A stretch of 64,000 nucleotides of DNA from a virus: positions 4,681 to 68,680 of IMG/VR virus record IMGVR_UViG_3300031653_000001. One strand, given 5' to 3'. This document shows positions 2,808 through 62,739 of this stretch, piece after piece (position 1 is the first letter of the stretch; every line of letters starts with the position of its first letter). Under the pieces are notes generated by a model. It did no database searches, was not told the DNA's origin, and saw only the letters and a list, made by a program, of their open reading frames with translations. The position numbers were made by a program, and so were the translations under genes.

Positions 2808-4024
2808 TGCAACCAATAGAGCTTATTACAAAACGATTTTTGCTAAATGGCGAGATTTTACGATCTCGCTTTTTTTCTATACCAAAGAATCAAACAATTT
2901 TAGTTTTTGCAGATATTATTGATAACACATTATTCAAACAATTAATGTGTTTTTTATCACAAAAATTGAATGTTATTTTGCTGACATTAGAAAAATCATC
3001 TTTTCAGCACAAAAATCTTTTTACAATAACAGTCTCGCCTATATGGTATATTCATACTTTGTTTAAAGATCCATTGCATTTTCATTTTGTATATGCGTAT
3101 GGTGTTTTGGCAAAAAGGTTAGCTGTTGCTTTTAGCCAATTTACATTATACAAGATAGAGATTGTTAAAAATATAAGTCATTTAAAGGATATAATATCAA
3201 AACAAGAAAATAAAATTCTAATTCAAAATTTCGATGGTACAGGGGATTGTTTAATGATGTTACCAGTTTTAAAAAAATTGTATCAGCAAGGGTATAAGAT
3301 TGATGTTGCTGGAGCCCCAGAAAGAAAAGGAGTTTTTGATAATTTGAGTTATATAAATTCTTTTTCATCTCAAAGAAAAGGAATAAATTTATCATATTAT
3401 AAAAAGTTCCAAGATATTTCTGGAAAATATTGTGATTATAGTAGTTTAAAAAATCATAAGCATAGAATTGATATAATATCGGATTTACTAGATGCAGGAA
3501 AAGTAGAACACGATATTGATATTTTTCTTACTGAAAAAGAAATAGAGCAAGCAAGAAAAGTTACAAAAGATTTGCATAGGAGAAAACTTCTGGTTGCCTT
3601 TGAGAGCAATGAGCAAAATAGGAGTTACAGTTATGATATGGCTATAAAATTAATTTCGCAAATAAAAAATTTTGATTTAATTTTTGTGGGTAAAGCTCGC
3701 AAAGATTATCCTTGTAAAAATTTAACAGGAAAAACCAAAAATATACGAGAAGTGTTTGCCTTTGTTTATGTGAGTGATGTGGTGCTAACAGTCGATACTT
3801 CTATATTGCATATAGCAAGAGCTTTTAATAAACCTACAGTTTTGTTACCTGGGGTAATAGACTATAATTGGCGCATTTATGAAAATGTTTTTGTAATAAA
3901 ACCAAAAATTTTTTGTTATCCCTGCAATCGGCAAAAACCCGAAAAATCCCCATGTTCATTGAACAAATCCTGTCCTGATTTTATTCCGCAAGACAAAATT
4001 CTAAAAAAACTTTCCCAAATCTGA
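2807..4024 (+). CDS. Glycosyltransferase family 9 (heptosyltransferase-like) with extra N-terminal domain
   Basis: DGTGDCLMMLPVLKKL, NLTGKT, VLTVDTSILHIARAFNKPTVLL, CYPC. Confidence 0.85.
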   Translation: MQPIELITKRFLLNGEILRSRFFSIPKNQTILVFADIIDNTLFKQLMCFLSQKLNVILLTLEKSSFQHKNLFTITVSPIWYIHTLFKDPLHFHFVYAYGVLAKRLAVAFSQFTLYKIEIVKNISHLKDIISKQENKILIQNFDGTGDCLMMLPVLKKLYQQGYKIDVAGAPERKGVFDNLSYINSFSSQRKGINLSYYKKFQDISGKYCDYSSLKNHKHRIDIISDLLDAGKVEHDIDIFLTEKEIEQARKVTKDLHRRKLLVAFESNEQNRSYSYDMAIKLISQIKNFDLIFVGKARKDYPCKNLTGKTKNIREVFAFVYVSDVVLTVDTSILHIARAFNKPTVLLPGVIDYNWRIYENVFVIKPKIFCYPCNRQKPEKSPCSLNKSCPDFIPQDKILKKLSQI

Positions 4025-4053
4025 AACATTTTTAAATCTCATTCGTCTTTAAT
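4022..4053 (+). promoter_or_regulatory. Putative late promoter copy 1, ECF-type TGAAAC-N16-CGTC
   Basis: 32-bp sequence identical to 16561-16592; upstream of tail tube/protease/capsid operon. Confidence 0.75.
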
Positions 4054-14126: not shown

Positions 14127-15973
14127 GGAAAAAAATATTATGTGTAGCGTCAAATTATAATGTTTCGGAGGATATTTATAGAGTCTTTGCCAAAATAGCA
14201 AAATCAATGCATGGCTTTGACTTTTATTATATGGTTGGAGATAATGATATTTTGCCAAGAAGGAAAAATGTATCGGAAAATCCAGATATTGTAAAAGATA
14301 TGGATTATCTTTTTGTTTGGAATGGATGTTTGGAAAATGGAATTGGGTATAAAACAGCAAAAAAGGCAGAACAATATTTTATACCAACATTTTATTTGGA
14401 GCGAGGTTTTTTGCCCCAGGAATATTCTAAAAAGGAATGGACTTTTTATGTAGACAAAAGAGGGGTTGAATGTAATTCATCGGTTGGTCTTTGGAAATTG
14501 AAATCACTCACTGATATAGAAGAAAATAAATTAAAGAAAGAGATTAAATCGTTAGGAATATATGATGATAAGAAAGAATATGTTTTATTGGCATTACAAA
14601 TAAATGGTGATATTAGAATAACACAACAATCTACAATTTTTAAGGATATGCAGGAGCTAATAGATTTTGTTTGTGATAATTTAAAAGACAAAAAAATTTT
14701 GGTAAGAAAACATCCATTGGATAATAGAGGATATATATTGCCAAACAACGCAGTTTGGGATACTAATAAAAAGTTGGTAGACTCTATAGCAAAGGCAGAA
14801 AGTGTTATTACCATAAATAGCAGTTGCGGCCTATGGGCTTTGGCGGCGGAAAAACCTACAATAATTTTTGGTAGTTCATTGTATGAAAATATTACATATA
14901 AAGCGAATAAAAAGAATTTTTTAAATGTATATAAACAAGCAATAATGGAACCCAAACAAGGAATAAAATCATTTCTATATAAAATGTTGTTTGAGTTTCA
15001 GTATAATGAAAATAATATAGACAATAAAAGATTACAGAAATATATAGAGAATCCAAAAGTTTCTGTTGTTATAACAAATTATAATCATAATGAATATTTA
15101 GAAGAAAGTATTAAATCGGTTTTCGCTCAAAAATATGAACCTTTAGAAATTATAGTTATAGACGATGGTTCTGATAAAGATATAACATCCATAGTTAGCA
15201 AATATCCACAGATAAAGCTTTACAAACGAGCGCACTATGGGCTGAATAACGTTAGAAATTTTGCCATTCTAAATATGACAGGCGATATTTTTATGTTGCA
15301 TGATGCTGATGATGTTATGTTACCAGATAGAATTAAAACAAGTGTTTATTATCTTACAAAATATCCTGAAATAGATGCTGTTTATGGTAATTATATTGTT
15401 ACAGATAAAGATTTGCGCAACAAACACTTACACAGAAATGAAGAATATAATTTTAATGCTCAACTATTAACAAGAGCAAGCATAGTCCCAGCCGGTTGTA
15501 TGGCTGTTAGAAAAGAAAGTTTTATAAAATCGGGAATTTTTGATGTAAATTTTGATTTTGTTTCAGATTTAGAATGGGCTGACAGAGCATATTTTAATGG
15601 ATTGAAGTTTAAGTTTATTGACAAATCATTCATATATTATCGGCGACATAAAACTTCTATAGGATATTTAAACAATACTGAACAGGAGAGACAAGAAAAT
15701 ATAATAATGAATAGAATTATGGAACATAATAAAAAATTAGAAATAAGGAATAGGAAAAGACCAACATTAAAAGAGTACAAATATTCTAAAATTGAAAAAA
15801 TTATATGTATTTTAACAGAGGTTTGGAAGAGTAGATTTGATTTACAGAAAGCATTTCCTAATTTTCCCAATGATTTAGGGTATAAATATCAAGGAAAAAT
15901 GACTATATTGGAATGGGCTGAAAAACATGGGGTTAAAGAAGTACCAAAAATAAGAGACTATTATAAAAAATGA
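14123..15973 (+). CDS. KpsS/Capsule_synth-like transferase fused to GT2
   Basis: LERGFLP, LQINGD, RKHPLD, TINSSCG; then VSVVITNYN, IDDGS, HDADD, YYRRH; C-terminal RFDLQKAFP...W...HG. Confidence 0.85.
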   Translation: MRKKILCVASNYNVSEDIYRVFAKIAKSMHGFDFYYMVGDNDILPRRKNVSENPDIVKDMDYLFVWNGCLENGIGYKTAKKAEQYFIPTFYLERGFLPQEYSKKEWTFYVDKRGVECNSSVGLWKLKSLTDIEENKLKKEIKSLGIYDDKKEYVLLALQINGDIRITQQSTIFKDMQELIDFVCDNLKDKKILVRKHPLDNRGYILPNNAVWDTNKKLVDSIAKAESVITINSSCGLWALAAEKPTIIFGSSLYENITYKANKKNFLNVYKQAIMEPKQGIKSFLYKMLFEFQYNENNIDNKRLQKYIENPKVSVVITNYNHNEYLEESIKSVFAQKYEPLEIIVIDDGSDKDITSIVSKYPQIKLYKRAHYGLNNVRNFAILNMTGDIFMLHDADDVMLPDRIKTSVYYLTKYPEIDAVYGNYIVTDKDLRNKHLHRNEEYNFNAQLLTRASIVPAGCMAVRKESFIKSGIFDVNFDFVSDLEWADRAYFNGLKFKFIDKSFIYYRRHKTSIGYLNNTEQERQENIIMNRIMEHNKKLEIRNRKRPTLKEYKYSKIEKIICILTEVWKSRFDLQKAFPNFPNDLGYKYQGKMTILEWAEKHGVKEVPKIRDYYKK

Positions 15974-16563
15974 GGCGTTTAGTAAAAGATTTTATTTCTA
16001 TTTGTGTAAAGAATTTTCCTTTTGAAGAACCAATATATGAATTTGGTTCGCTACAGGTTAAAGGACAAGAGGGCTTTGCAGATTTAAGACCATATTTTCC
16101 CAATAAAGAATTTATAGGTACTGATTTTAGGCAGGGTCTTGGAGTAGATAAAATAATGAATCTGCATAAATTACCTTTAAAAAAAGAAAGTATAGGTTCT
16201 GCGATATGTGTAGAAACCCTAGAGCATACAAAACATCCCTTTAAAGCTATGAGTGAGATTTATAGGGTTTTGAAACCTAATGGAATTTGTGTAATAACTT
16301 GTCCTTTTTCTTTTCCTTTACATGATTATCCAAATGATTATTATAGGTTTACTCCAAGTGGATTTAAAATACTTTTATCAAACTTTAAATCGGTATATGT
16401 TGAACAGGCTGGGAGAGATATAATACCTCATACTGTTGTGGGAGTAGCATATAAAGGAGAAATTGACTTTTTGGCAAATAAAAAATTTTTAGGCGAAATA
16501 GAAGAATGGAAGGAATTTTATATTACAATGTATGGAAAAAATAGAAAAAGTGATCAAGATTGA
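15970..16563 (+). CDS. Class I SAM methyltransferase
   Basis: YEFGS, GTDF..GLGVD, ETLEH, RVLKPNG, HDYPNDYYRFT. Confidence 0.85.
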   Translation: MRRLVKDFISICVKNFPFEEPIYEFGSLQVKGQEGFADLRPYFPNKEFIGTDFRQGLGVDKIMNLHKLPLKKESIGSAICVETLEHTKHPFKAMSEIYRVLKPNGICVITCPFSFPLHDYPNDYYRFTPSGFKILLSNFKSVYVEQAGRDIIPHTVVGVAYKGEIDFLANKKFLGEIEEWKEFYITMYGKNRKSDQD

Positions 16564-16592
16564 AACATTTTTAAATCTCATTCGTCTTTAAT
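16561..16592 (+). promoter_or_regulatory. Putative late promoter copy 2, ECF-type TGAAAC-N16-CGTC
   Basis: Identical to 4022-4053; upstream of head-tail/tail operon. Confidence 0.75.
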
Positions 16593-16608: not shown

Positions 16609-16809
16609 GTGGTAAAAATTATTTTGGAAACACTTGATTCTTGGGGATTTAATGGGGGTAGTATAACTTTAATTATCCTTTTATTACTTGGCTATGTTAA
16701 GATTATTACAAATCATTACAAGCATATTTTAAGGTCAATAAGTAATATAGATAAAAGATTAGATGATATAGATAAACGAACAGTAAGATTAGAGACTTTT
16801 CACGAATAA
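16609..16809 (+). CDS. Small TM plus coiled-coil protein (holin-like)
   Basis: ITLIILLLLGYV TM segment then IDKRLDDIDKRTVRLE. Confidence 0.45.
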   Translation: MVKIILETLDSWGFNGGSITLIILLLLGYVKIITNHYKHILRSISNIDKRLDDIDKRTVRLETFHE

Positions 16810-19152: not shown

Positions 19153-19509
19153 ATGGAAAATAAAGAAAAATTTTATTTAATTGATTTTTTCGCAAACGAG
19201 TATAAATGGAGTTTCGCCGAAGCAGTTAAATTTGTATTTGAGACCCCAAACGATATAGTAATGAACCTATACAAAACAGCATTAAAAAGGCAGAGGGATG
19301 ATATACGCCTAAAAACAAAATTAATTGCTTATGCTGTTGGGGCGGGCTTTTCAGGAAAAATGGAAATATTAGACGAGGTTTTTGGTATAAAGAAAAAAGT
19401 TTCAGAAGCAGAATATTTGAATGGTGTAAGAACATTATGGGCTAAAATGGGTAGAGACCCAAAGAAATTAGAAGAAATGATAAAATCTGGGGAGATGATT
19501 AAATTCTAA
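19153..19509 (+). CDS. Probable tail assembly chaperone (gpT-like part)
   Basis: Directly upstream of tape measure; FANEYKWS pattern. Confidence 0.5.
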   Translation: MENKEKFYLIDFFANEYKWSFAEAVKFVFETPNDIVMNLYKTALKRQRDDIRLKTKLIAYAVGAGFSGKMEILDEVFGIKKKVSEAEYLNGVRTLWAKMGRDPKKLEEMIKSGEMIKF

Positions 19510-37111: not shown

Positions 37112-39409
37112 ATGGCGAAAAAGAAAAAAACAAACAGTATAGACCTTAATAGCTTCTATAAAGATTTTTGGAAGCAAAAAACAAAATCTAAAAGCAATGA
37201 TATTGTTTCTCCTACCAATTTTTTTAAGAATTGGACTCACGCCCCATTATTTCCCAAACAGATGATACCAGTTGACAAAACATTCACCAACGATTATAAA
37301 TCACTATCAACAAATATTAATGAACTTGTAATAGGATTTGGGAAGAGATGTTTGGATGGAAGCACGAAACTTAAAGATGAAGAAACAAACAGAGAATACA
37401 CAATAAAAGAACTATCAGAAAAGAAAAAAGCAATATCAATAAAAAGTGTTAAAGTAATTGGTAGTAACCAAAAAGGATGGCCAAAAGGAAGGGTTGTTAC
37501 ACAGAAAACAGGAGTACCATTTTATAAAGGAAAATCAAAAATATATAGGGTCAAAACAGAGTCAGGAAAAGAAATTTTAGTTGGGGGGCACCATAGATTT
37601 TTATCTAAAAGTGGATGGAAAGAAATAAAGGATTTAAAGGTTAAAGAAGAAATTATGGTATCTAAAGCACCCAATGAGTCATTATCAAAAGAACAAGAAA
37701 AACAAAGAAAAAATAAAATTAGCAAAAAGATGAAAATGTTAACATGGGATAAAATAACAGAAATAGAGTATGTTGGGGAAAATGATATTTATGATTTAGA
37801 AGTACCCGAAACAAATACATATATTGCGCAGGGATTCGTTAGTCATAATTCAGGCAAGGATTTTTTAATATCAAACCTATTGACATATATACTTTACTTT
37901 CTTTTGAAACAATCAGACCCAGCAGAATTTTTAGGTCTTAAATCAGGAGAACCAATTGATATTGTAAATGTTAGTTTTGATGAACCACAAGCAAAAACAG
38001 TATTCTTTAAGAGATTAAAGAATAGGATAAAAGGTTGTATAAACCCTGAAACCAAAAGAAATTTCTTTGAAGAACAGGGAATGGATTTAAATAGAGATAT
38101 ACAAAAAAACAGTATAATATTCCCAAAGAATATAACAGCATACTCGCTTAATTCTGTAAAATTTAAAGCTGAGGGGAAAAATGTTGTGTTTGCTATTTTT
38201 GATGAAATAGCGCAGTTTAGATTTGATAAAGCAGATGCAATACGTAGGCATATTAAGACAACAGCTAAAGCAACATGTCCTAAATTTTTCAAATTATTTT
38301 ATATTAGTTTTTTAACTAATGGCAATGATTATATGGCTAATTTATTAGAAAAGGCAGAAAAAGGAGAAATGCCAAAAACTTTTTATATGCGAGAATCAAC
38401 ATGGAATGTTAGGAGCCAGAGAGGTTGCCCAAAAGAACTAAAGCCATATATTGTTCATCGTAGTACATACCAAGACGAGTTTGACGAAGATCAGGAGAAC
38501 TCAACATTAATGTTTGAATGTAAAGTACCAAAAACAAGAAAAAGTAGTTTCATAAAACGACCAGAAAAAATACTTCAATCAGTAGGTTATATCTTAGACC
38601 AAAATGGTGAGAAAATATTTCGTGAAGATCCAAGAATAGAAAATGAAAAAATAATAGTATATGATGATGAACTAAAAGATTTAGAGTTTGAATCTTGGTT
38701 TAGACCATTCTATACCTGGGAGATATGGCAATTAGAAAGACAATACGATATACAACCATCAGAAGAATTAGAAAACCAAATAATTAAACTAAAAGAACGC
38801 CAACAAACAGCAGAGTATTATACTCATATTGATTTATCTAGAGGGGTTGTAGATAGCGCAGGGATTGGTTTAGGACACAGATATTATATAATGGACAGGA
38901 TAAAAATATATATAGATTTGATATTGGCTATAAGAGCAAGAAAAGAACAGGAAATAGATATGTCCAAAATATTAGATTTTATATTACTTAGATTGCACAA
39001 AGGAAAAAAATCTCTTGGTGGTCTTGGATTTAATATACAAAAGATAACATCAGATGGCTGGAATAGCTCTCTATTTTTAAATTTATGTGAACGTGAGAAT
39101 ATGGAAGCAGAATTGATAAGTTTGGAGCGCACAACAGCGCCATATAATACATTTAAAGATTTCATATATAAGCAGGGTATAAACTATTATCCATATCCTC
39201 CTCTATTAAGAGAAACAGAAGAGCTTATAATAACAGATAATGGTAAAATACAACACCCAAGATCAAGCAGACGTAGAATGAAAGAAGAAGGGCTATCAAA
39301 AGGTTCGAAGGATTGTTCAGATTGTTGCTCTGGTCTGAGTTATTCTATGACTCAAGATAGTGAAGAGGGCGATATGGCGTGGACAAGCGATCATGAACAG
39401 GAGGAATAA
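37112..39409 (+). CDS. Terminase large subunit containing an intein
   Basis: Walker A GKR|SGKD split by intein; Walker B AIFDEIA; nuclease HIDLS, SDGWNS, KDCSD. Confidence 0.9.
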   Translation: MAKKKKTNSIDLNSFYKDFWKQKTKSKSNDIVSPTNFFKNWTHAPLFPKQMIPVDKTFTNDYKSLSTNINELVIGFGKRCLDGSTKLKDEETNREYTIKELSEKKKAISIKSVKVIGSNQKGWPKGRVVTQKTGVPFYKGKSKIYRVKTESGKEILVGGHHRFLSKSGWKEIKDLKVKEEIMVSKAPNESLSKEQEKQRKNKISKKMKMLTWDKITEIEYVGENDIYDLEVPETNTYIAQGFVSHNSGKDFLISNLLTYILYFLLKQSDPAEFLGLKSGEPIDIVNVSFDEPQAKTVFFKRLKNRIKGCINPETKRNFFEEQGMDLNRDIQKNSIIFPKNITAYSLNSVKFKAEGKNVVFAIFDEIAQFRFDKADAIRRHIKTTAKATCPKFFKLFYISFLTNGNDYMANLLEKAEKGEMPKTFYMRESTWNVRSQRGCPKELKPYIVHRSTYQDEFDEDQENSTLMFECKVPKTRKSSFIKRPEKILQSVGYILDQNGEKIFREDPRIENEKIIVYDDELKDLEFESWFRPFYTWEIWQLERQYDIQPSEELENQIIKLKERQQTAEYYTHIDLSRGVVDSAGIGLGHRYYIMDRIKIYIDLILAIRARKEQEIDMSKILDFILLRLHKGKKSLGGLGFNIQKITSDGWNSSLFLNLCERENMEAELISLERTTAPYNTFKDFIYKQGINYYPYPPLLRETEELIITDNGKIQHPRSSRRRMKEEGLSKGSKDCSDCCSGLSYSMTQDSEEGDMAWTSDHEQEE
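37349..37849 (+). mobile_element. Mini-intein (167 aa) in terminase Walker A
   Basis: Starts CLDGST, block B GGHHRF, ends IYDLEV...YIAQGFVSHN followed by Ser. Confidence 0.92.
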
Positions 39410-42797: not shown

Positions 42798-43350
42798 CTA
42801 TAATTGTTTCTCCAGTTCTTGTTTTTATGTCCAGATTCATCATTATTTGAATAGCCTCATTGCGATACTGTTCGGGAACAAAGTTATCAATAATAGATTT
42901 TGTTGCCTCTAATATTTTTTTCATATCGCCAAGAGAAATATTATTGTTAATAATAAGGTTCTTTGGGTTGAACGAATTAAGTATCTTAACTTCCTTTTCT
43001 GTTCTATCGACTATATTTTTCAAAACACGTAATTTCATACCAAATGAATTTTTTGGCGGGATCAACCCATTACTCTTTTCTTTTATTTCCTTAAACATTT
43101 CCCAATACTCATCTCTAACTCTATGTATTTCTTGTCTTAATGCTTCTACATTTGCCACATATTGCTCTGCTAATTTAGGGTGATTTAAAAGCATTTTACT
43201 TCTAAATGCAGTAATATGATTCATATCTTTTTGTGCTGTTGTTTGAGCAATGTGTAGCTCTTTGGCTATCTGATATGATGTCATTCCCTTATCAACCAGT
43301 TTTGCTATAGTTTTCCTTCTCTTTCTTTGATCTTCTTTGGAAATATTCAT
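42775..43350 (-). CDS. Probable terminase small subunit (N-terminal HTH)
   Basis: KGMTSYQIAKELHIAQTTAQKD; C-terminal IIDAEV; near portal. Confidence 0.6.
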   Translation of the reverse strand: MNISKEDQRKRRKTIAKLVDKGMTSYQIAKELHIAQTTAQKDMNHITAFRSKMLLNHPKLAEQYVANVEALRQEIHRVRDEYWEMFKEIKEKSNGLIPPKNSFGMKLRVLKNIVDRTEKEVKILNSFNPKNLIINNNISLGDMKKILEATKSIIDNFVPEQYRNEAIQIMMNLDIKTRTGETIIDAEVADE

Positions 43351-43661
43351 TATTTTATTAATCCTTCTATTTCTTTCCTTCCAACAACTTGATTCAAAAG
43401 AAGGAGAATACCACTTAAAGGAAATGTTTTTGCTATCTCATCTTTTGTTAATCCTTCGTTATATTCTTTCAAAATCATATAAGTAATGTCTACATAACAT
43501 TCTTTTATTTTTTTAGTATCTCCCTTAGCTTTTTCTAAATTCGCCAACTGAGTATCAATTGCTTCTGTCTGATCTAAAGACAATGGATAAGCAACATACT
43601 TTTTGCCTCTGACCTCATACTCGTATTTTTGGGTTAAATTTGTCATCTCTGTTTCCTCCAT
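43350..43661 (-). CDS. Possible tail assembly chaperone (gpG-like)
   Basis: EVRGKKY..YPLS...ILK....LTKDEI pattern seen in tail chaperones. Confidence 0.45.
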   Translation of the reverse strand: MEETEMTNLTQKYEYEVRGKKYVAYPLSLDQTEAIDTQLANLEKAKGDTKKIKECYVDITYMILKEYNEGLTKDEIAKTFPLSGILLLLNQVVGRKEIEGLIK

Positions 43662-43939
43662 TTTTTTAATTGTTCTTTTAACATTTTTATATCATACCCC
43701 AATACTTCTATCTTAAAAAAGGCTATAAATTCACCTAGCCGAATCAAACTATAAGCCACATCCTCTCGGCGAAGTAATTTTAGTTTTTTTTTCATTTTCA
43801 AAAACCCACAGCCTTTTAAATATAAACTCCATAATTTCCATAAATCTTTTGGCAAAAAAGCCTTCATTTTTTTTAGTATACTTTTTTGATTAGTAAGTAT
43901 TTTCTTCCTTTCGTAGTCTATTAATAGCTTTTCGTTCAT
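43643..43939 (-). CDS. Sigma region-4-like HTH protein (C-half of a split sigma factor)
   Basis: LPKDLWKLWSLYLKGCGFLKMKKKL...DVAYSLIRL; own AAGGAG RBS. Confidence 0.5.
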   Translation of the reverse strand: MNEKLLIDYERKKILTNQKSILKKMKAFLPKDLWKLWSLYLKGCGFLKMKKKLKLLRREDVAYSLIRLGEFIAFFKIEVLGYDIKMLKEQLKKWRKQR

Positions 43940-44150
43940 TGATTATTCTCCTTTGTTTATCAATTAAAAAATTTTTAAGTATTATGAACCACTCATTTAA
44001 AGAATGTTTCTGCTCTTTTTTTGACAAATATAATACAAACAAATCATTATATAGATCTCTTCTGTCCATATAAACACATTTGAACTTATAAGCATATATA
44101 TTGGACAAATAAGATATTATTTCTTCAATTTGTTTATTTATATTATTCAT
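43890..44150 (-). CDS. ECF sigma region-2-like protein (N-half of a split sigma factor)
   Basis: DRRDLYNDLFVLYL...WFIILKNFLIDKQRR matches the D.EDL.Q..F.....W....+N..ID..R pattern. Confidence 0.65.
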   Translation of the reverse strand: MNNINKQIEEIISYLSNIYAYKFKCVYMDRRDLYNDLFVLYLSKKEQKHSLNEWFIILKNFLIDKQRRIINERKAINRLRKEENTY

Positions 44151-44163
44151 ATCTTCTACTTTT

Positions 44164-44194
44164 ATTATAACATATTATACTGTGCGAATACAAC
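44164..44194 (-). promoter_or_regulatory. Phage promoter TTCGCA-N13-TATAAT (extended -10) driving sigma/terS/portal
   Basis: GTTGTATTCGCACAGTATAATATGTTATAAT; one of four aligned copies. Confidence 0.75.
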
Positions 44195-44195
44195 A

Positions 44196-44765
44196 TTATT
44201 TTTTGTTTTTTAAGGTTGCCAAGACCAATATTATTGCATCTGCTTGGTCATCTTGGGTTACTTTAAACCCCATTTTCTGTAACTGTTCTATAATCATTTT
44301 CTTTCTTTTGGCATAATTGCCATTTTTAAGTTTTTTTAGCCGATCAATCCCCTCTTTGTTCTTTTTTGTTGGTTTGAGACCATATTTCTTTTTTGCCTCT
44401 CTAATTTCTTTATTATAAGATGGCAAAGTAGTATTAATGCCAGCTATTCGTCTGGCAGATGAGGCCATTATAATTTCTGTTGTAATATTCTTAAAGAAAC
44501 ACTCAACAATAACCCAACCTCTAAGTTCATTCAAAAGCTTCACTGTGGCAAAGTTATTCTTTATAAAAGTGTCCTCAATAATCACAATATTTGGTATTTG
44601 TTCATTGAGTAATTTTTTAATTTTTTGCGCTTGGTATAACATAGCAGATATGCCTTTTGTTTTATTTGGTTTGGCGAAATTGCCAGATAGCCACTTCTTG
44701 GTTACAGTATTGAAAACCGCATAACCTGTTGAACTTGTGCTAATATCTAGACCTAAAATTTTCAT
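44196..44765 (-). CDS. ruvC: RuvC-like Holliday junction resolvase
   Basis: ILGLDISTSSTG, VIIED, DDQADAI. Confidence 0.85.
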   Translation of the reverse strand: MKILGLDISTSSTGYAVFNTVTKKWLSGNFAKPNKTKGISAMLYQAQKIKKLLNEQIPNIVIIEDTFIKNNFATVKLLNELRGWVIVECFFKNITTEIIMASSARRIAGINTTLPSYNKEIREAKKKYGLKPTKKNKEGIDRLKKLKNGNYAKRKKMIIEQLQKMGFKVTQDDQADAIILVLATLKNKK

Positions 44766-47685: not shown

Positions 47686-47716
47686 ATTATACCATATTTT
47701 GCCTTGCAAAATCCAC
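47686..47716 (-). promoter_or_regulatory. Phage promoter TTTGCA-N13-TATAAT
   Basis: GTGGATTTTGCAAGGCAAAATATGGTATAAT. Confidence 0.75.
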
Positions 47717-54325: not shown

Positions 54326-54356
54326 ATTATAACATATTTTATCCTGCGAAATCCAC
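54326..54356 (-). promoter_or_regulatory. Phage promoter TTCGCA-N13-TATAAT
   Basis: GTGGATTTCGCAGGATAAAATATGTTATAAT. Confidence 0.75.
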
Positions 54357-54357
54357 T

Positions 54358-54585
54358 TTAAATAGCTGTATTTGGACATATATTCACATTATTCTTTGTC
54401 TTTTTATTCAGAGCATGTAATAAATTCAATACTATTGTTTTGCGACAATACAGGCTTCTTAAATGTTCTTGTCTTGCTACTACAGACTCCACATATTCTT
54501 TTTCACCAATTTTAAATTTTAACTCAATGGTTAACATTTCGTCCATAATTATTCTCCTATGTTTAAAATAGGGTTTTTTGTTCAC
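54358..54585 (-). CDS. Hypothetical protein
   Basis: ORF in operon. Confidence 0.45.
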   Translation of the reverse strand: MNKKPYFKHRRIIMDEMLTIELKFKIGEKEYVESVVARQEHLRSLYCRKTIVLNLLHALNKKTKNNVNICPNTAI

Positions 54586-55597
54586 TCCAACCCATTACAT
54601 CAAATATTTTTTTGGCGGTATTATCAATATTGTTTTTAGTCATTTTATTCCAGTCAATTTTATCTCTATCAATCAAATGTTTTTTATCAATTGCAATTAC
54701 ACCACCATTTTTTAGATACACCCAATAAAATAACTCACCAAATCTTTTCTTTAGCTTGCTATTGTGTAAAGCTCTAACAAAAATGGGAAGTTTCTTTTTA
54801 AATTTTTTATCTCCTCTTATTAGAAACTCTTTATATTCTACATCTTTTAATTTCGCTGGAACCCCAATATCTAACAATGGGGCTGTTAAAAATCGCTCCT
54901 TTTCGCTACCAACCCATTTTTTTGTTTCTGAATAATTTATATCTTTAAATATTTTTTCTTTAATTAAAGTTTCCTGAAATTCTGCTTTAAATTTTGAGCT
55001 TGCCGCTGATTTCATTTCAAGCCCACGAACCTTATAAGTACCATCCGCATATTGTCCAATATAATGACAATTATCAACGTTAAGCATTTTAACAAAAGAT
55101 CTATCAGATTCAAAAATATTATCTTCTATAATTTTGCCATATTTTTCTTTAGCCCATTGTTTTGCCAATTTATTAAATTCATCAACCAAGTCTTTTTCTG
55201 CTTGATATGCAATGCCATCTGTATCAATAAAAACAACCTTAAATTCAATATGAGATTCTATATAATGAAGCATATCTCTAACTAAAAAAGTTATAGTTTT
55301 TGGTATTTTAATGTTATATAAACGAAATGTTTTGAACGCCATCACACCGAAGAGAGAATTATATATTGATTTTATGGATTTATATCTCATTGAAAGAGAG
55401 GGGTTTGTTTTCTTTTGTTCTTTAATATTGGCTTTGATTTTACCTATCTTGATTACCAATTTAGTTACAATACCTTCTCTTTGAGCAAAAGAAACCCCAT
55501 CTATTTCAACTCCTTTTTTATCTACATTCTCTGGAGTTAAGAAAAATAGATCAATCATTGTTGGGTATGCCGATACAATATCTGCAATATAAATCAT
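54563..55597 (-). CDS. polB: Family B DNA polymerase, polymerase half
   Basis: ADIVSAYP (motif A), KSIYNSLFG (motif B), IDTDG (motif C), VRGLE; ends QKTLF. Confidence 0.9.
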   Translation of the reverse strand: MIYIADIVSAYPTMIDLFFLTPENVDKKGVEIDGVSFAQREGIVTKLVIKIGKIKANIKEQKKTNPSLSMRYKSIKSIYNSLFGVMAFKTFRLYNIKIPKTITFLVRDMLHYIESHIEFKVVFIDTDGIAYQAEKDLVDEFNKLAKQWAKEKYGKIIEDNIFESDRSFVKMLNVDNCHYIGQYADGTYKVRGLEMKSAASSKFKAEFQETLIKEKIFKDINYSETKKWVGSEKERFLTAPLLDIGVPAKLKDVEYKEFLIRGDKKFKKKLPIFVRALHNSKLKKRFGELFYWVYLKNGGVIAIDKKHLIDRDKIDWNKMTKNNIDNTAKKIFDVMGWSEQKTLF

Positions 55598-56628
55598 TTG
55601 TAATATCCTGGGTTACTGGTGCGATATGCACCTTTAAATGTTTCTTTTATTTCTTTACCCCTGTTTGGTAAAACTATTCTATCTTCTTTGGCTTGCCGTA
55701 ATAGCATAATATCCATCATTCTACTATTATATAAAGTATTTCCCCAATCACATCTAACAAACCTTCTAATATCATCATAAAAATCTAACAAATGATGTTT
55801 TTGCTCAATTTTCGCCAAATCTTCAATATCTTCAATATTGTGTAATTTTAAATCCTCATTCACAATACTAAAATCCTCTATAGGATGTTTTTTGCCAGTG
55901 CCAAATTCGTATTCTAAAATATAATCCAATTTATATGATTTGCGACCATGTGGAAATATCTTTTTATACATTTCCATATAATCCAAAATTGATACCCCCG
56001 AAGGAACAAACAATTTATTCTGAAAATAAACTGAATTTATTGGACTAATAAAAGAAGAAAAATAACTTCTAAAATATTCGTTCCAGCGATTACATAAATA
56101 TTCCCAATCAAAATTAATATTCCAGCCCACAATTAAATCAAAATCCTCTCGCTTTAGGTATAATGCTAAATTTAACAGTAATTCTTTTTCGTTTTTATAA
56201 TTGGGCAAGAAAAAATTTATTTTATTCTTGTCAAAAGAATTATAGACTGTAACACAACTTACAGGATATTTAGCCTCTCCGGGCTTAGGAAAATCTTTTG
56301 CTTTAACTTCTATGTCCAAAAATGAATATTTGAACTCTGTTTTTTCTATAGAGTTTATTTTGTCAATAAAATATCGATTCCTATACAAAATATCTGATTC
56401 CCAACTATTTTTACTCTTTTGCTTTTTAATAATATTTGGCTCACTAACAAATACCTGTCTAAATGTTTTATTGCCATAAATACCTTTTAATGTTCCATTA
56501 TCTGAAGTTTCATAATAGTAAGGTAAAAAGTTATTGTCAATAGTATAGAATTTTTTGCGATTTTCTCGCTGAAATAAATATATTGTATGTGCTTTGTTTG
56601 CTAAATTTACAAGTTTCATTTTCCCCAA
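55594..56628 (-). CDS. polB: Family B DNA polymerase, N-terminal/3'-5' exonuclease half
   Basis: LDIEV (ExoI), GWNINFDWEYL (ExoII), YKLDYI, HNIED (ExoIII), FKGAY...PG. Confidence 0.9.
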   Translation of the reverse strand: MGKMKLVNLANKAHTIYLFQRENRKKFYTIDNNFLPYYYETSDNGTLKGIYGNKTFRQVFVSEPNIIKKQKSKNSWESDILYRNRYFIDKINSIEKTEFKYSFLDIEVKAKDFPKPGEAKYPVSCVTVYNSFDKNKINFFLPNYKNEKELLLNLALYLKREDFDLIVGWNINFDWEYLCNRWNEYFRSYFSSFISPINSVYFQNKLFVPSGVSILDYMEMYKKIFPHGRKSYKLDYILEYEFGTGKKHPIEDFSIVNEDLKLHNIEDIEDLAKIEQKHHLLDFYDDIRRFVRCDWGNTLYNSRMMDIMLLRQAKEDRIVLPNRGKEIKETFKGAYRTSNPGYYK

Positions 56629-57972: not shown

Positions 57973-58587
57973 TTATATTTTGTATTTTTCTTTTATGTGT
58001 TTAATACAATCATATATTTTATAAAATGTTATTATTTCCCCTTTATTGGAAATTTGGTTGCCAAATAATAAAGATGAGTTACATTCTGTTTTAGTGGTAT
58101 CTGGTAAAATCAAATATATTGGTATTCTGAATAAAAAAGCAATTACAATTTCAAATATTGTTCCTACTGTTTTTATATCTTTAGATATATAAACAATTAT
58201 AAAATCTGATCTAACTACAGCTTCAAAATCACCCCAGGATTGTATTTCTTCTCTATAATTTCCATCTATATATTTCCTCATTCTTAAATTTTGAAGAACT
58301 TGAATTAAATCTGAATTTTGTTGAATCTCTCCTAACCAAATTTTCCACATCTCTATAAAAAACAAATCCCAATGTCCTGCTCGTTTTAAATTAGTTATGT
58401 ATTCTACTGGCTCAATGGATGATTTTCCTATTTTATATGATTCTTGCAAAACTGGATTATAAATTAATAAATCTTGCGAATTTAATTTTTCAGTTATTTC
58501 TGTACGCCAATCTTTCATTTCACTTTTAGAAGCCGATTCTATTGCACCTGCTAAATAACTTGTATATTTTACTCTTTTTCTATTCAT
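57973..58587 (-). CDS. Nucleoside 2-deoxyribosyltransferase / dNMP N-glycosidase family
   Basis: YLAGAI, YNP, D..AVVRSDFII, GTIFEI..A...IPIY. Confidence 0.8.
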   Translation of the reverse strand: MNRKRVKYTSYLAGAIESASKSEMKDWRTEITEKLNSQDLLIYNPVLQESYKIGKSSIEPVEYITNLKRAGHWDLFFIEMWKIWLGEIQQNSDLIQVLQNLRMRKYIDGNYREEIQSWGDFEAVVRSDFIIVYISKDIKTVGTIFEIVIAFLFRIPIYLILPDTTKTECNSSLLFGNQISNKGEIITFYKIYDCIKHIKEKYKI

Positions 58588-62708: not shown

Positions 62709-62739
62709 ATTATACCATATTTATATATACGAAATCTAA
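62709..62739 (-). promoter_or_regulatory. Phage promoter TTCGTA-N13-TATAAT
   Basis: TTAGATTTCGTATATATAAATATGGTATAAT followed by AAAGGAGG. Confidence 0.7.

What the first reader, a model, noticed from the sequence alone, without database searches (positions are those of the whole stretch)
43643..44150. Split (two-subunit) ECF-like sigma factor, likely the late-gene switch
Seen: a sigma2-like ORF (86 aa) and a sigma4-like ORF (98 aa) overlap by 50 nt in different frames; the second has its own AAGGAG 8 nt before its ATG; together they equal a typical ECF size. A TTCGCA-N13-TATAAT promoter sits just upstream and two ECF-type promoters head the structural operons. Known: two-subunit sigmas are rare (Bacillus SigO-RsoA). 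Inference: a middle promoter to split sigma to late promoter cascade. A single-base assembly error or a +1 frameshift cannot be excluded, and the sigma4 match is weaker.
Basis: partly seen in the sequence, partly recalled or inferred. Interest (0 to 1): 0.8.

Follow-up and report, generated by a model that had tools for sequence, protein, structure and literature searches.

The report
Phage sigma factor split in two genes
An uncultured salt-marsh phage carries what look like the two halves of a small RNA-polymerase sigma factor as two separate, overlapping genes; the split is real and conserved, and adds a new phage family to the few known two-piece sigma factors.

Summary
Two minus-strand ORFs (86 aa, 43890-44150; 98 aa, 43643-43939) overlap by 50 nt. 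The second is in the +1 frame and has AAGGAG 8 nt before its ATG.

The split is not an error:
- Contigs from three other samples cover the overlap without change.
- All 19 related loci keep two ORFs, with overlaps of 1-50 nt and two different frame offsets.
- No fused form was found.
- Both frames are under purifying selection.

No sequence profile calls either ORF a sigma. Predicted structures do:
- ORF2 resembles sigma region 4: 12 of the 13 best solved-structure matches, Z up to 9.1.
- ORF1 resembles sigma domain 2 more weakly: Z 7.4, plus language-model features.

Two identical 32-nt TGAAAC-N16-CGTC elements head the head and tail operons. That the pair reads them is inference.

Two-subunit sigmas are already known: SigO-RsoA, Tn916 Sig7-Sig8 and T4 gp55/gp33. 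This scan has also noted split phage sigmas on other DNA, with 22 findings in at least 20 genomes. Verdict: a real new family and variant of a known kind, of moderate interest.

The parts
44164..44188 (-). Promoter-like site TTCGCA-N13-TATAAT with TGT extended -10, 13 nt upstream of the ORF1 ATG. It is one of four near-identical sites on the early/middle arm.
   Evidence: The same TGgTATAAT and the same 13-nt distance to the ATG occur in L001. A C>T variant at 44185 inside the upstream box is seen in 3 other samples.
43890..44150 (-). ORF1, 86 aa: three-helix protein resembling sigma domain 2 (the -10/core-binding half).
   Evidence: dN/dS is 0.057 outside the overlap.
43948..43953 (-). AAGGAG ribosome-binding site for ORF2, inside the 3' part of ORF1, 8 nt before the ATG.
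   Evidence: L001 has AGAGGAG at the same place.
43890..43939 (-). 50-nt dual-coding overlap of ORF1 and ORF2, with ORF2 in the +1 frame.
   Evidence: Contigs of runs X3, X4 and X5 span it with 0 differences and 0 gaps.
43643..43939 (-). ORF2, 98 aa: N-terminal helix followed by a four-helix HTH domain resembling sigma region 4 (the -35/flap-binding half).
   Evidence: dN/dS is 0.109 outside the overlap.
43350..43661 (-). ORF3 (103 aa as listed). Its likely start is the ATG at 43646, which overlaps the ORF2 stop as ATGA and follows a GGAGG. Function unknown; not a conserved partner.
   Evidence: It is present in L001 87 nt after ORF2 and absent from L004-L010, where the TerS-like gene follows ORF2 directly.
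4022..4053 (+). Candidate late promoter 1: 32-nt element TGAAAC-N16-CGTC. Its TGA is the stop codon of the upstream gene. It lies 52 nt before the head operon (129-aa gene, protease/scaffold-like gene, major head protein).
16561..16592 (+). Candidate late promoter 2: an identical 32-nt element. Its TGA is the stop codon of the upstream methyltransferase gene. It lies 17 nt before a 66-aa membrane-like ORF and the tail operon (tape measure at 19509).
47686..47710 (-). Second member of the TTYGYA-N13-(TGn)TATAAT promoter-like class.
54326..54350 (-). Third member of the same promoter-like class.
62709..62733 (-). Fourth member of the same promoter-like class.

Best explanation
ORF1 and ORF2 are two real, separately translated genes that together form a two-subunit, ECF-like sigma factor of a phage that has no detected RNA polymerase of its own. 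ORF1 would be the sigma-domain-2 half (docks on the beta' clamp helices, reads and opens the -10). ORF2 would be the sigma-region-4 half (docks on the beta flap, reads the -35). They are transcribed from an extended -10 promoter-like site at the end of the replication/recombination arm. ORF2 is translated from its own AAGGAG inside ORF1, so the two are coupled. The holoenzyme carrying both halves would then start transcription at the two identical TGAAAC-N16-CGTC elements that head the head and tail operons. What is shown: two genes, conserved as two genes, under selection, with sigma2-like and sigma4-like predicted folds; a repeated 32-nt element in front of both structural operons. What is inferred: binding to RNA polymerase, joint action of the two proteins, and the choice of those promoters.
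For: The split is real. Logan contigs of three other samples (X3 record 7, X4 record 12, X5 record 16) span 43890-43939 with 0 other letters and 0 gaps. A relative with 84% (ORF1) and 89% (ORF2) amino-acid identity has the same 86 + 98 aa pair with a 50-nt overlap. All 19 of 19 related loci examined (L001-L010, L013-L021, about 8 distinct sequence types) have an ORF1 homologue of 86-120 aa followed by a separate ORF2 homologue of 98-124 aa. Among the nine pairs analysed (the window, L001, L003-L007, L009, L010), overlaps are 1, 8, 14, 23 or 50 nt. ORF2 is in frame +1 in eight of them and +2 in L004, which recurs as L021. Each ORF2 has its own start codon and a stop 3-33 nt upstream in its frame. 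Among 1.84 billion representative proteins, ORF1 has 22 hits at E<=1e-3. Twenty are 74-112 aa, one is a 37-aa fragment, and one 497-aa hit is a spurious tandem-repeat protein. Both ORFs are coding: dN/dS against L001 is 0.057 (ORF1) and 0.109 (ORF2) outside the overlap, against 0.59-2.3 with 4-13 stops in the other frames. Folds: the ORF2 model has pLDDT 79.5, and 85-93 over residues 21-70. By VIA-align against 48,161 chains, 12 of the 13 best rows are entries named for sigma factors or sigma region 4: CnrH Z 9.1, rmsd 2.2 over 66; SigL -35-binding domain Z 9.0 over 78; SigW, SigK, BldN, SigR region 4. LuxR-type regulators come next. Foldseek's best rows are also sigma factors, with probability 0.98 and 0.92 but E 0.21 and 0.68. 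The ORF1 model has pLDDT 90.5. Its best VIA rows are the ECF sigma RpoE (Z 7.4, rmsd 3.3, 80 aligned, chain residues 4-84) and an M. tuberculosis initiation complex. Fourteen of the first 37 rows are entries named for sigma factors or their domain 2, and the T4 gp45-dependent late complex is at rank 25. The ESM Atlas feature search puts ORF1 nearest an 87-aa, all-viral cluster of which 82% carry Sigma70_r2 (score 0.96, 181 of 256 features). The distant ORF2s are homologous to the window's: hhalign probability 87.5%, E 3.5e-6 over 55 columns. Context: no other sigma-family match in the whole 68,680-nt record with PF04542 or PF08281, apart from a weak hit in the TerS-like HTH gene. No RNA polymerase family appeared among the 39 window ORFs, the pair included, scanned against Pfam or PHROGs. 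The 32-nt element has AAC at -35 and CGT at -10 with a 16-nt spacer, the hallmark quoted for ECF promoters (passage of PMC8103513), and it stands before both the head and the tail operon.
Against: No sequence method recognises either ORF as a sigma. Pfam, PHROGs and NCBIfam give nothing. Only 1 of 21 ORF1-family members touches Sigma70_r2, at E 0.022, and 0 of 12 ORF2-family members touch a sigma family. PDB profile searches give nothing for ORF1 and only E 0.3 LuxR-type hits for ORF2. hhalign against E. coli RpoE has probability below 1%. For ORF1, Foldseek E-values are 2.7 or worse, and its Z of 7.4 lies in the range the tool calls common for helical models. Sigma region 4 and LuxR-type HTH domains share a fold, so ORF2 could be an ordinary activator. 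Nothing ties the proteins to each other, to RNA polymerase or to the 32-nt elements. There are only two copies of that element, and the loose motif is not enriched. The relative G003 has no TGAAAC-N16-CGTC at the homologous places; it has a different shared element there. No RNA run holds the region.
Confidence: 0.6

Rival explanations
1. ORF1 and ORF2 are two independent regulators. ORF1 would be a minimal sigma2-like factor acting alone or with another partner, as T4 gp55 does. ORF2 would be an ordinary LuxR/sigma4-fold DNA-binding activator or repressor, or a packaging-associated HTH protein, that merely sits next to it.
For: LuxR-type response regulators follow directly after the sigma rows for ORF2 (DosR, DesR, EsrB at Z 8.1), and the only sequence-level hints are LuxR-type (E 0.3). 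The pair always lies just upstream of a TerS-like HTH gene. The T4 late complex is among the ORF1 matches (rank 25, Z 5.7). The phage encodes a sliding clamp and a clamp loader, as T4 does.
Against: The two genes are linked and overlapping in 19 of 19 loci over about 20-40% identity. Sigma region 4 chains outrank LuxR chains and align over more of the model, including the N-terminal helix. The gene order sigma2 then sigma4 and the summed size (184 aa) match a single ECF sigma. The candidate late promoter has a -35-like box, which a gp55-type factor would not need (passage of PMC2988020).
Confidence: 0.2
2. Neither protein is a sigma subunit. They would be small helical proteins with another role, for example modifiers of host RNA polymerase or host sigma, or proteins unrelated to transcription. 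The fold matches would then reflect common helical arrangements.
For: All sequence-profile tests were negative. The ORF1 Z-scores lie in the range the aligner calls common, and unrelated helical proteins are mixed among the top rows. The BFVD search was uninformative.
Against: Sigma entries are heavily over-represented among the best of 48,161 chains for both models independently. The Atlas feature search for ORF1 scored 0.96 with 181 shared features to a Sigma70_r2 cluster, and the tool says shuffled or reversed proteins reach 0.95 or more only about once in 100. The family's conserved columns (D32, L33, D36, L37, Y41, W54, F55, K59, L62) fall where sigma regions 2.1-2.2 and 2.3-2.4 have their conserved Asp/Leu and Trp/Asn/Asp/Arg positions; that placement is my recollection of the Sigma70_r2 pattern, not a test.
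Confidence: 0.13
3. A programmed +1 ribosomal frameshift, or transcriptional slippage, within the 50-nt overlap joins the two frames into one ECF sigma of about 180 aa. The separate ORF2 product would be minor or absent.
For: The overlap is unusually long, and its 3' 30 nt are identical between the window and L001. The summed length equals that of an ECF sigma.
Against: Among the nine pairs, the overlap is only 1-14 nt in five (L004, L005, L007, L009, L010), and the ORF2 frame offset differs in L004. No shift site can therefore be conserved. The ORF2 frame is closed 3 nt before its ATG, and that ATG has a good AAGGAG. The overlap has no homopolymer run longer than 4 and no RF2-type CUU-UGA site (read). 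No fused protein was found in any database search.
Confidence: 0.04
4. A single-base assembly or sequencing error splits one gene.
For: None was found. This is only the prior that split genes in metagenome assemblies are often errors.
Against: Independent contigs from three other samples are identical across the overlap. The split is kept in a relative at 84-89% identity and in all distant relatives. All homologues in the protein libraries are short.
Confidence: 0.01

Closest known systems
Bacillus subtilis SigO-RsoA (YvrI-YvrHa) two-subunit sigma factor
   Same: The sigma2 and sigma4 functions lie on two separate proteins encoded by adjacent genes, which together direct initiation (passage of PMC8103513; passage of the Tn916 preprint).
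   Different: No sequence similarity was detected; no NCBIfam or Pfam sigma model hit either ORF. My recollection, not a tool result, is that sigO (the sigma4 part) comes first there. Here the order is sigma2 then sigma4, colinear with an ECF gene, and the genes overlap by 50 nt. This pair is phage-borne rather than chromosomal.
Tn916 Sig7-Sig8 (orf7/orf8) split sigma factor (bioRxiv 10.64898/2026.10.01.756105; listing and passages seen)
   Same: A mobile element encodes a two-subunit sigma that switches on the element's main operon. The halves were likewise not obvious from sequence; the authors report that Orf8 was recognised only by a language-model tool.
   Different: That element is conjugative, with a positive feedback loop from its own promoter. 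Here the pair's own promoter is of a different class from the candidate targets. No homology was tested, because no Tn916 sequence was fetched.
Phage T4 gp55 + gp33 (with clamp gp45), called a 'split sigma' in PMC2988020 (listing and passages seen)
   Same: A phage late-gene switch made of a sigma2-like protein and a separate flap-binding sigma4 counterpart. The entry for the T4 late complex is among the ORF1 structural matches (rank 25, Z 5.7, rmsd 2.9 over 83). This phage also encodes a clamp and a clamp loader.
   Different: T4 gp33 does not read DNA, T4 late promoters have no -35 element, and the two T4 genes are widely separated. Here ORF2 has an HTH sigma4-like fold, the candidate promoters have a -35-like TGAAAC, and the genes overlap. 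No PHROG or Pfam family of gp55 or gp33 was hit. No clamp-binding tail is evident by eye.
Single-chain ECF (group IV) sigma factors such as E. coli RpoE and B. subtilis SigW
   Same: The domain content (sigma2 + sigma4 only), the total size (184 against 191 aa), the best structural matches and the AAC/CGT form of the candidate promoters.
   Different: Two polypeptides instead of one. No Pfam match. No recognisable anti-sigma. Its own promoter is not of the ECF type.
Bacillus phage SPO1 gp33 + gp34
   Same: Two phage proteins that together direct late transcription, as stated in the preprint passage.
   Different: Nothing was tested here. No match to the window's ORFs in 50,697 GenBank phage records by tblastn.

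Membership tests
ECF (group IV) sigma-70 family | Sequence match to Sigma70_r2 / Sigma70_r4_2 (Pfam) above the curated cut-off | tested here: not met
   No match for either ORF. One of 21 ORF1-family members hit at E 0.022, and 0 of 12 ORF2-family members. A six-frame search of the whole record with PF04542 found nothing. PF08281 gave only 11.8 bits, in another gene.
ECF (group IV) sigma-70 family | Sigma domain 2 fold | tested here: inconclusive
   The ORF1 model has pLDDT 90.5. Its best VIA row is an ECF RpoE at Z 7.4, rmsd 3.3 over 80, and 14 of the first 37 rows are named for sigma factors, but the Z lies in the tool's 'common' range. Foldseek E is 2.7 or worse. Atlas features score 0.96 with 181 shared to a Sigma70_r2 cluster.
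ECF (group IV) sigma-70 family | Sigma region 4 (HTH) fold | tested here: met
   The ORF2 model has pLDDT 79.5. Twelve of the 13 best VIA rows are sigma region 4 entries at Z 8.2-9.1 and rmsd 1.6-4.4. Foldseek probability is 0.98 and 0.92 to sigma factors, with E 0.21 and 0.68. The fold is shared with LuxR-type regulators.
ECF (group IV) sigma-70 family | Sigma2 and sigma4 in one polypeptide joined by a short linker | tested here: not met
   Two ORFs in 19 of 19 loci, and no fused homologue.
ECF (group IV) sigma-70 family | Target promoters with AAC at -35 and CGT at -10 | tested here: inconclusive
   Two identical TGAAAC-N16-CGTC elements lie before the head and tail operons. No evidence shows that this pair reads them.
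ECF (group IV) sigma-70 family | Positive autoregulation from an ECF-type promoter | tested here: not met
   Upstream of ORF1 lies a TTCGCA-N13-TGTTATAAT site of another class. There is no TGAAAC-N16-CGTC on the minus strand.
ECF (group IV) sigma-70 family | Co-transcribed anti-sigma factor | tested here: inconclusive
   The coupled downstream ORF3 has no informative family and is absent from the distant loci.
Two-subunit (split) sigma factors (SigO-RsoA, Tn916 Sig7-Sig8) | Sigma2-like and sigma4-like parts on separate proteins from adjacent genes | tested here: met
   subject to the fold caveats above.
Two-subunit (split) sigma factors (SigO-RsoA, Tn916 Sig7-Sig8) | Sequence homology to SigO/RsoA or Sig7/Sig8 | tested here: inconclusive
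   No NCBIfam, Pfam or PHROG sigma-related hit. The known proteins themselves were not fetched or compared.
Two-subunit (split) sigma factors (SigO-RsoA, Tn916 Sig7-Sig8) | Both proteins bind RNA polymerase and both are needed for initiation | not testable with these tools
   This needs pull-down and transcription assays.
T4-type late system (gp55 + gp33 + clamp) | Homology to gp55 / gp33 families | tested here: not met
   No PHROG or Pfam hit. There is only a fold-level match of ORF1 to the T4 late complex entry at Z 5.7.
T4-type late system (gp55 + gp33 + clamp) | Late promoters with a -10 element only, and a non-DNA-reading flap binder | tested here: not met
   The candidate promoters have a -35-like box, and ORF2 has an HTH sigma4-like fold. 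The T4 properties come from the PMC2988020 passages.

The most novel reading that the evidence does not exclude
Because the two halves are not tethered, the sigma4-like subunit may be used in modular fashion. With ORF1 it would read the TGAAAC box 16 nt from CGTC at the late promoters. With the host primary sigma, whose region 4 it would displace from the beta flap, it would read the TTYGYA box that lies only 13 nt from the extended -10 at the four middle promoters, including its own. One small phage protein would then drive both a MotA/AsiA-like middle programme and an ECF-like late programme, at promoter spacings that a covalently linked sigma could not span.
Probability: 0.07. Interest if true: 0.8.

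Novelty: new variant of a known kind. Interest (0 to 1): 0.5.

Why it matters
Two-piece sigma factors raise three questions: how the -10 and -35 readers are positioned on RNA polymerase without a linker, why a fission is kept, and how the subunit ratio is set.

This family would offer a compact natural example. It has two proteins of about 10-12 kDa, encoded in the ancestral order. The candidate cognate promoter is a perfect 32-nt duplicate of ECF form placed before both structural operons. That makes a clean reconstitution test possible with either half, both halves, or an engineered fusion.

It also shows that small phage sigma halves escape all profile libraries and appear only through structure prediction. 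Phage-encoded sigma factors are therefore probably under-counted.

Tried and rejected
- **Sequence libraries.** Pfam, PHROGs and NCBIfam on both ORFs gave no sigma hit. Member-wise Pfam scans of both families were essentially negative. PDB sequence-profile searches found nothing for ORF1 and weak LuxR-type hits for ORF2.
- **hhalign against E. coli RpoE.** Not significant: probability 0.3% and 0.4%. The short local alignments fall at RpoE 82-93 and 151-162, which I do not count as evidence.
- **Foldseek.** Against PDB and BFVD for ORF1, nothing reached E <= 0.001.
- **GenBank phages.** blastn of 5 kb and tblastn of both ORFs found no match.
- **Viral contigs.** P0007, P0010 and P0008 found no relatives.
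- **Genome contigs.** Alignment A5 found no relatives, so no host is assigned.
- **Fused forms.** 'Longer' searches with A6 (218-2000 aa) and A3 (197-2000 aa) found none. The tool calls this weak evidence. ORF2-based searches did not cover proteins of 173-217 aa.
- **Promoter and terminator consensus scan.** Uninformative in this AT-rich DNA: 49 found against 52.3 in shuffles.
- **Relaxed ECF-like motifs.** Not enriched: 10 against 14.65. The late-promoter pattern is absent from the close relative's fragment G001, which does not reach the structural region, and is no more frequent than its control in G002-G005.
- **RNA evidence.** No RNA holder is listed for the region, so expression is untested.
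- **Rejected hit.** The 497-aa hit P0014 is a tandem-repeat artefact.
- **Supplements.** Supplementary files of papers were not consulted.
Full report
**What is there.** The window is bases 4681-68680 of a 68,680-nt linear virus record, estimated 56% complete. It has about 30% G+C and two convergent arms.
- The plus arm (1-39409) holds the head, glycosylation, tail and intein-containing packaging genes.
- The minus arm (64000-39572) holds methylases, a sliding clamp, a clamp loader, PolB, RecA, nucleases and RuvC. These are followed by the two ORFs of the finding, a 103-aa ORF, a TerS-like HTH protein and the portal.
- ORF1 is 43890..44150 (-), 86 aa, and ORF2 is 43643..43939 (-), 98 aa. They overlap by 50 nt. 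ORF2 is in the +1 frame, a TAA closes that frame 3 nt before its ATG, and AAGGAG lies 8 nt upstream.

**Is the split real?** Yes, on four independent grounds.
- **Reads.** Contigs assembled from three other salt-marsh samples cover 43890-43939 with no difference and no gap: X3 43822-44018, X4 43781-43976, X5 43782-44271. The one indel listed, at 43676, comes from a 31-nt partial match of an unrelated contig. These samples share habitat and year with the probable source, so they may belong to one campaign.
- **Close relative.** A relative with 84% and 89% amino-acid identity (L001 = L002) has the same 86 + 98 aa pair with a 50-nt overlap.
- **Distant relatives.** All 19 fetched loci have two ORFs. 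That is about eight distinct sequence types, with ORF1 identity down to 30-38%. In the nine pairs, the overlap is 1, 8, 14, 23 or 50 nt, the ORF2 frame is +1 in eight and +2 in one, and ORF2 has its own ATG or GTG.
- **Protein libraries.** A HMMER scan of 1.84 billion representatives with ORF1 gave 22 hits. Twenty are 74-112 aa, one is a 37-aa fragment, and one 497-aa hit is a tandem-repeat artefact. The five close ORF2 homologues are 97-98 aa. Searches restricted to longer proteins found no fused form; this is weak evidence, and 173-217 aa was not covered for ORF2.

Both frames are under purifying selection against L001. dN/dS is 0.057 and 0.109 outside the overlap, while the other frames give 0.59-2.3 and contain stops. 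An assembly error is excluded. A programmed frameshift is unlikely, because there is no conserved shift window, no slippery run in the overlap, and ORF2 has a good ribosome-binding site.

**Are they sigma halves?** Sequence methods say nothing.
- Pfam, PHROGs and NCBIfam gave no sigma hit.
- Member-wise Pfam gave 1 of 21 at E 0.022 for ORF1 relatives and 0 of 12 for ORF2 relatives.
- PDB profile searches were empty or weak.
- Six-frame searches of the whole record with Sigma70_r2 and Sigma70_r4_2 found only a weak hit in the TerS-like gene.
- hhalign against E. coli RpoE was not significant.

The case rests on predicted structure and language-model features.
- **ORF2.** AlphaFold2 on a 12-sequence alignment gave pLDDT 79.5, with the HTH core at 85-93. 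An all-against-48,161-chain structural search returned 16 chains at Z >= 8. Twelve of the first 13 rows are sigma region 4 entries: CnrH Z 9.1, rmsd 2.2 over 66; SigL Z 9.0; SigB, SigH, SigD4, SigW, SigK, BldN, SigF, SigR. LuxR-type regulators follow. Foldseek agrees in ranking but not in E-value.
- **ORF1.** On a 21-sequence alignment the model has pLDDT 90.5 and three helices. Its best rows are an ECF RpoE (Z 7.4, rmsd 3.3, 80 residues, colinear with chain residues 4-84) and other sigma entries. Fourteen of the first 37 rows are named for sigma factors, and the T4 late complex is at rank 25. The Z-values lie in the range the tool warns is common for helical proteins, and unrelated proteins are interspersed. 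The ESM Atlas places ORF1 next to an all-viral cluster of 87-aa proteins, 82% of which carry Sigma70_r2 (score 0.96, 181 shared features). Its own model of ORF1 matches several sigma clusters. For ORF2 the Atlas features are uninformative at 0.82.

The sigma4-like assignment is therefore the firmer one and the sigma2-like assignment is probable. The window's ORF2 and the downstream ORFs of the distant loci are homologous: hhalign probability 87.5%, E 3.5e-6. This is one conserved gene pair.

**Expression signals.**
- ORF1 is preceded by TTCGCA-N13-TATAAT with a TGT extended -10, 13 nt before the ATG. The same arrangement is in L001.
- The pattern TTYGYA-N13-TATAAT occurs five times, all on the minus strand, against 0.31 expected. 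Four sites share AATATG[GT]TATAAT and stand in front of genes. I read these as promoters for the host primary sigma of the extended -10 type, possibly with an activator box. That reading is inference.
- In three other samples the box upstream of ORF1 carries a C>T change at 44185.
- ORF1 would have a very short leader and no clear Shine-Dalgarno sequence, whereas ORF2 has a strong one. Different translation rates of the two halves are possible; this too is inference.
- ORF3 is probably coupled to ORF2 through an ATGA overlap at 43646-43643. It is not conserved in the distant loci.

**Candidate targets.**
- The only long exact repeat in non-coding DNA of the window is a 32-nt element at 4022-4053 and 16561-16592. 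It reads TGAAAC, 16 nt, CGTC.
- Each copy starts with the TGA stop of the upstream gene.
- The first copy precedes the head operon: a 129-aa gene, a protease/scaffold-like gene and the major head protein.
- The second precedes a 66-aa membrane-like ORF and the tail operon, with the tape measure at 19509.
- AAC at -35 and CGT at -10 are quoted as ECF hallmarks in PMC8103513 (passage).
- There are only these two copies in the whole record, and looser versions are not enriched. The promoter reading therefore rests on the perfect duplication and its position.
- In the relative G003, which shares the two-arm layout, the homologous positions before the head and tail operons carry a different shared element. 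It is a block of about 24 nt around a common 12-mer, with 21 identical positions in my reading of the alignment. G003 has no TGAAAC-N16-CGTC there.
- A phage-specific duplicated element at the same two places in both phages, with different sequences alongside ORF1 proteins only about 33% identical, fits co-evolving sigma-promoter pairs. It does not prove them.

**Mechanism proposed.** Host RNA polymerase transcribes the pair from the extended -10 site together with, or just after, the replication genes. The two proteins are made separately. ORF1 takes the sigma2 site and ORF2 the sigma4 site on core enzyme. The resulting holoenzyme starts at the two 32-nt elements and turns on the head and tail genes. 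Only the gene structure, its conservation and the folds are shown. Polymerase binding, cooperation of the two proteins and promoter choice are inferred. My confidence is 0.6.

**Comparison with what is known.** Two-subunit sigmas are established.
- SigO-RsoA of B. subtilis has sigma4 and sigma2 on separate proteins (PMC8103513 passage).
- Sig7-Sig8 of Tn916 was shown to bind RNA polymerase and its promoter (preprint passages).
- T4 gp55 + gp33 is called a split sigma in PMC2988020 (passages).
- SPO1 gp33 + gp34 is described as such in the preprint passage.

The present pair differs in four ways. It has no detectable sequence relation to any annotated family. It keeps the ancestral order, sigma2 then sigma4. 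Its genes overlap. It comes with a candidate bipartite ECF-form promoter, unlike T4, whose gp33 does not read DNA. It fails several ECF membership criteria: single chain, Pfam match and autoregulation. I therefore do not file it as an ECF sigma, only as working like one.

My full-text searches for split, two-subunit or bipartite sigma factors returned no paper on such a phage family. These searches work by words, not by sequence, and cover open-access papers only. Earlier notes of this scan report split phage sigma factors on other DNA: 22 findings in at least 20 genomes, including sigma2-then-sigma4 pairs. None shares sequence words with ORF1.

**Verdict.** The sigma-half reading is well supported for ORF2 and probable for ORF1. 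The late-switch role is a reasonable but untested inference. It is a new family and variant of a known kind, of moderate interest.

Noticed in passing
window 54563-56628 (-): DNA polymerase B is encoded as two adjacent 344-aa ORFs that overlap by 4 nt: the exonuclease domain at 55594..56628 and the polymerase domain at 54563..55597. This may be a second split gene in this phage.
   Followed up: no
window 43350-43661 (-): ORF3 (103 aa as listed) probably starts at the ATG at 43646, which overlaps the ORF2 stop as ATGA and follows a GGAGG. In L001 it lies 87 nt after ORF2, and it is absent from L004-L010. It has no informative family; its only hit is phrog_7947 (unknown function), at E 7e-4.
   Followed up: partly
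window 37112-39409 (+); G002-G005: The 765-aa intein-containing protein at the end of the plus arm has 50-52% identical homologues in the relatives. There they lie between the TerS-like gene and the portal, on the sigma strand. It is presumably the large terminase, which has moved or inverted in this phage; that identity is inferred from position only.
   Followed up: partly
L025 (G003) 3166-3215 and 14245-14290: In the relative G003 the head operon and the tail operon are each preceded by a shared element of about 24 nt around the 12-mer CTGTATTTAATA. Upstream of the tail genes it stands ahead of an inserted HNH-like ORF. It may be a different late promoter at positions homologous to the window's 32-nt elements.
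   Followed up: partly
G002, G003, G004 (L022-L030), minus strand: A 21-nt motif recurs 2-6 times per record directly before ribosome-binding sites and start codons. Many copies of a TTGACA ... TGTTATACT promoter-like pair also occur. The motif is not found in the window: 1 match at 3 mismatches against 0.52 expected.
   Followed up: partly
window 44185: A C>T variant (G>A on the coding strand, inside the TTCGCA box upstream of ORF1) is present in the contigs of three other samples.
   Followed up: no
window 16609-16809 (+): A 66-aa ORF with a hydrophobic stretch starts 17 nt after the second 32-nt element and ahead of the tail genes. It has no Pfam family.
   Followed up: no
window 58456-58480 (-): A fifth match to TTYGYA-N13-TATAAT lacks the extended -10 and lies inside the ORF 57973..58587. 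It is probably a chance match.
   Followed up: yes
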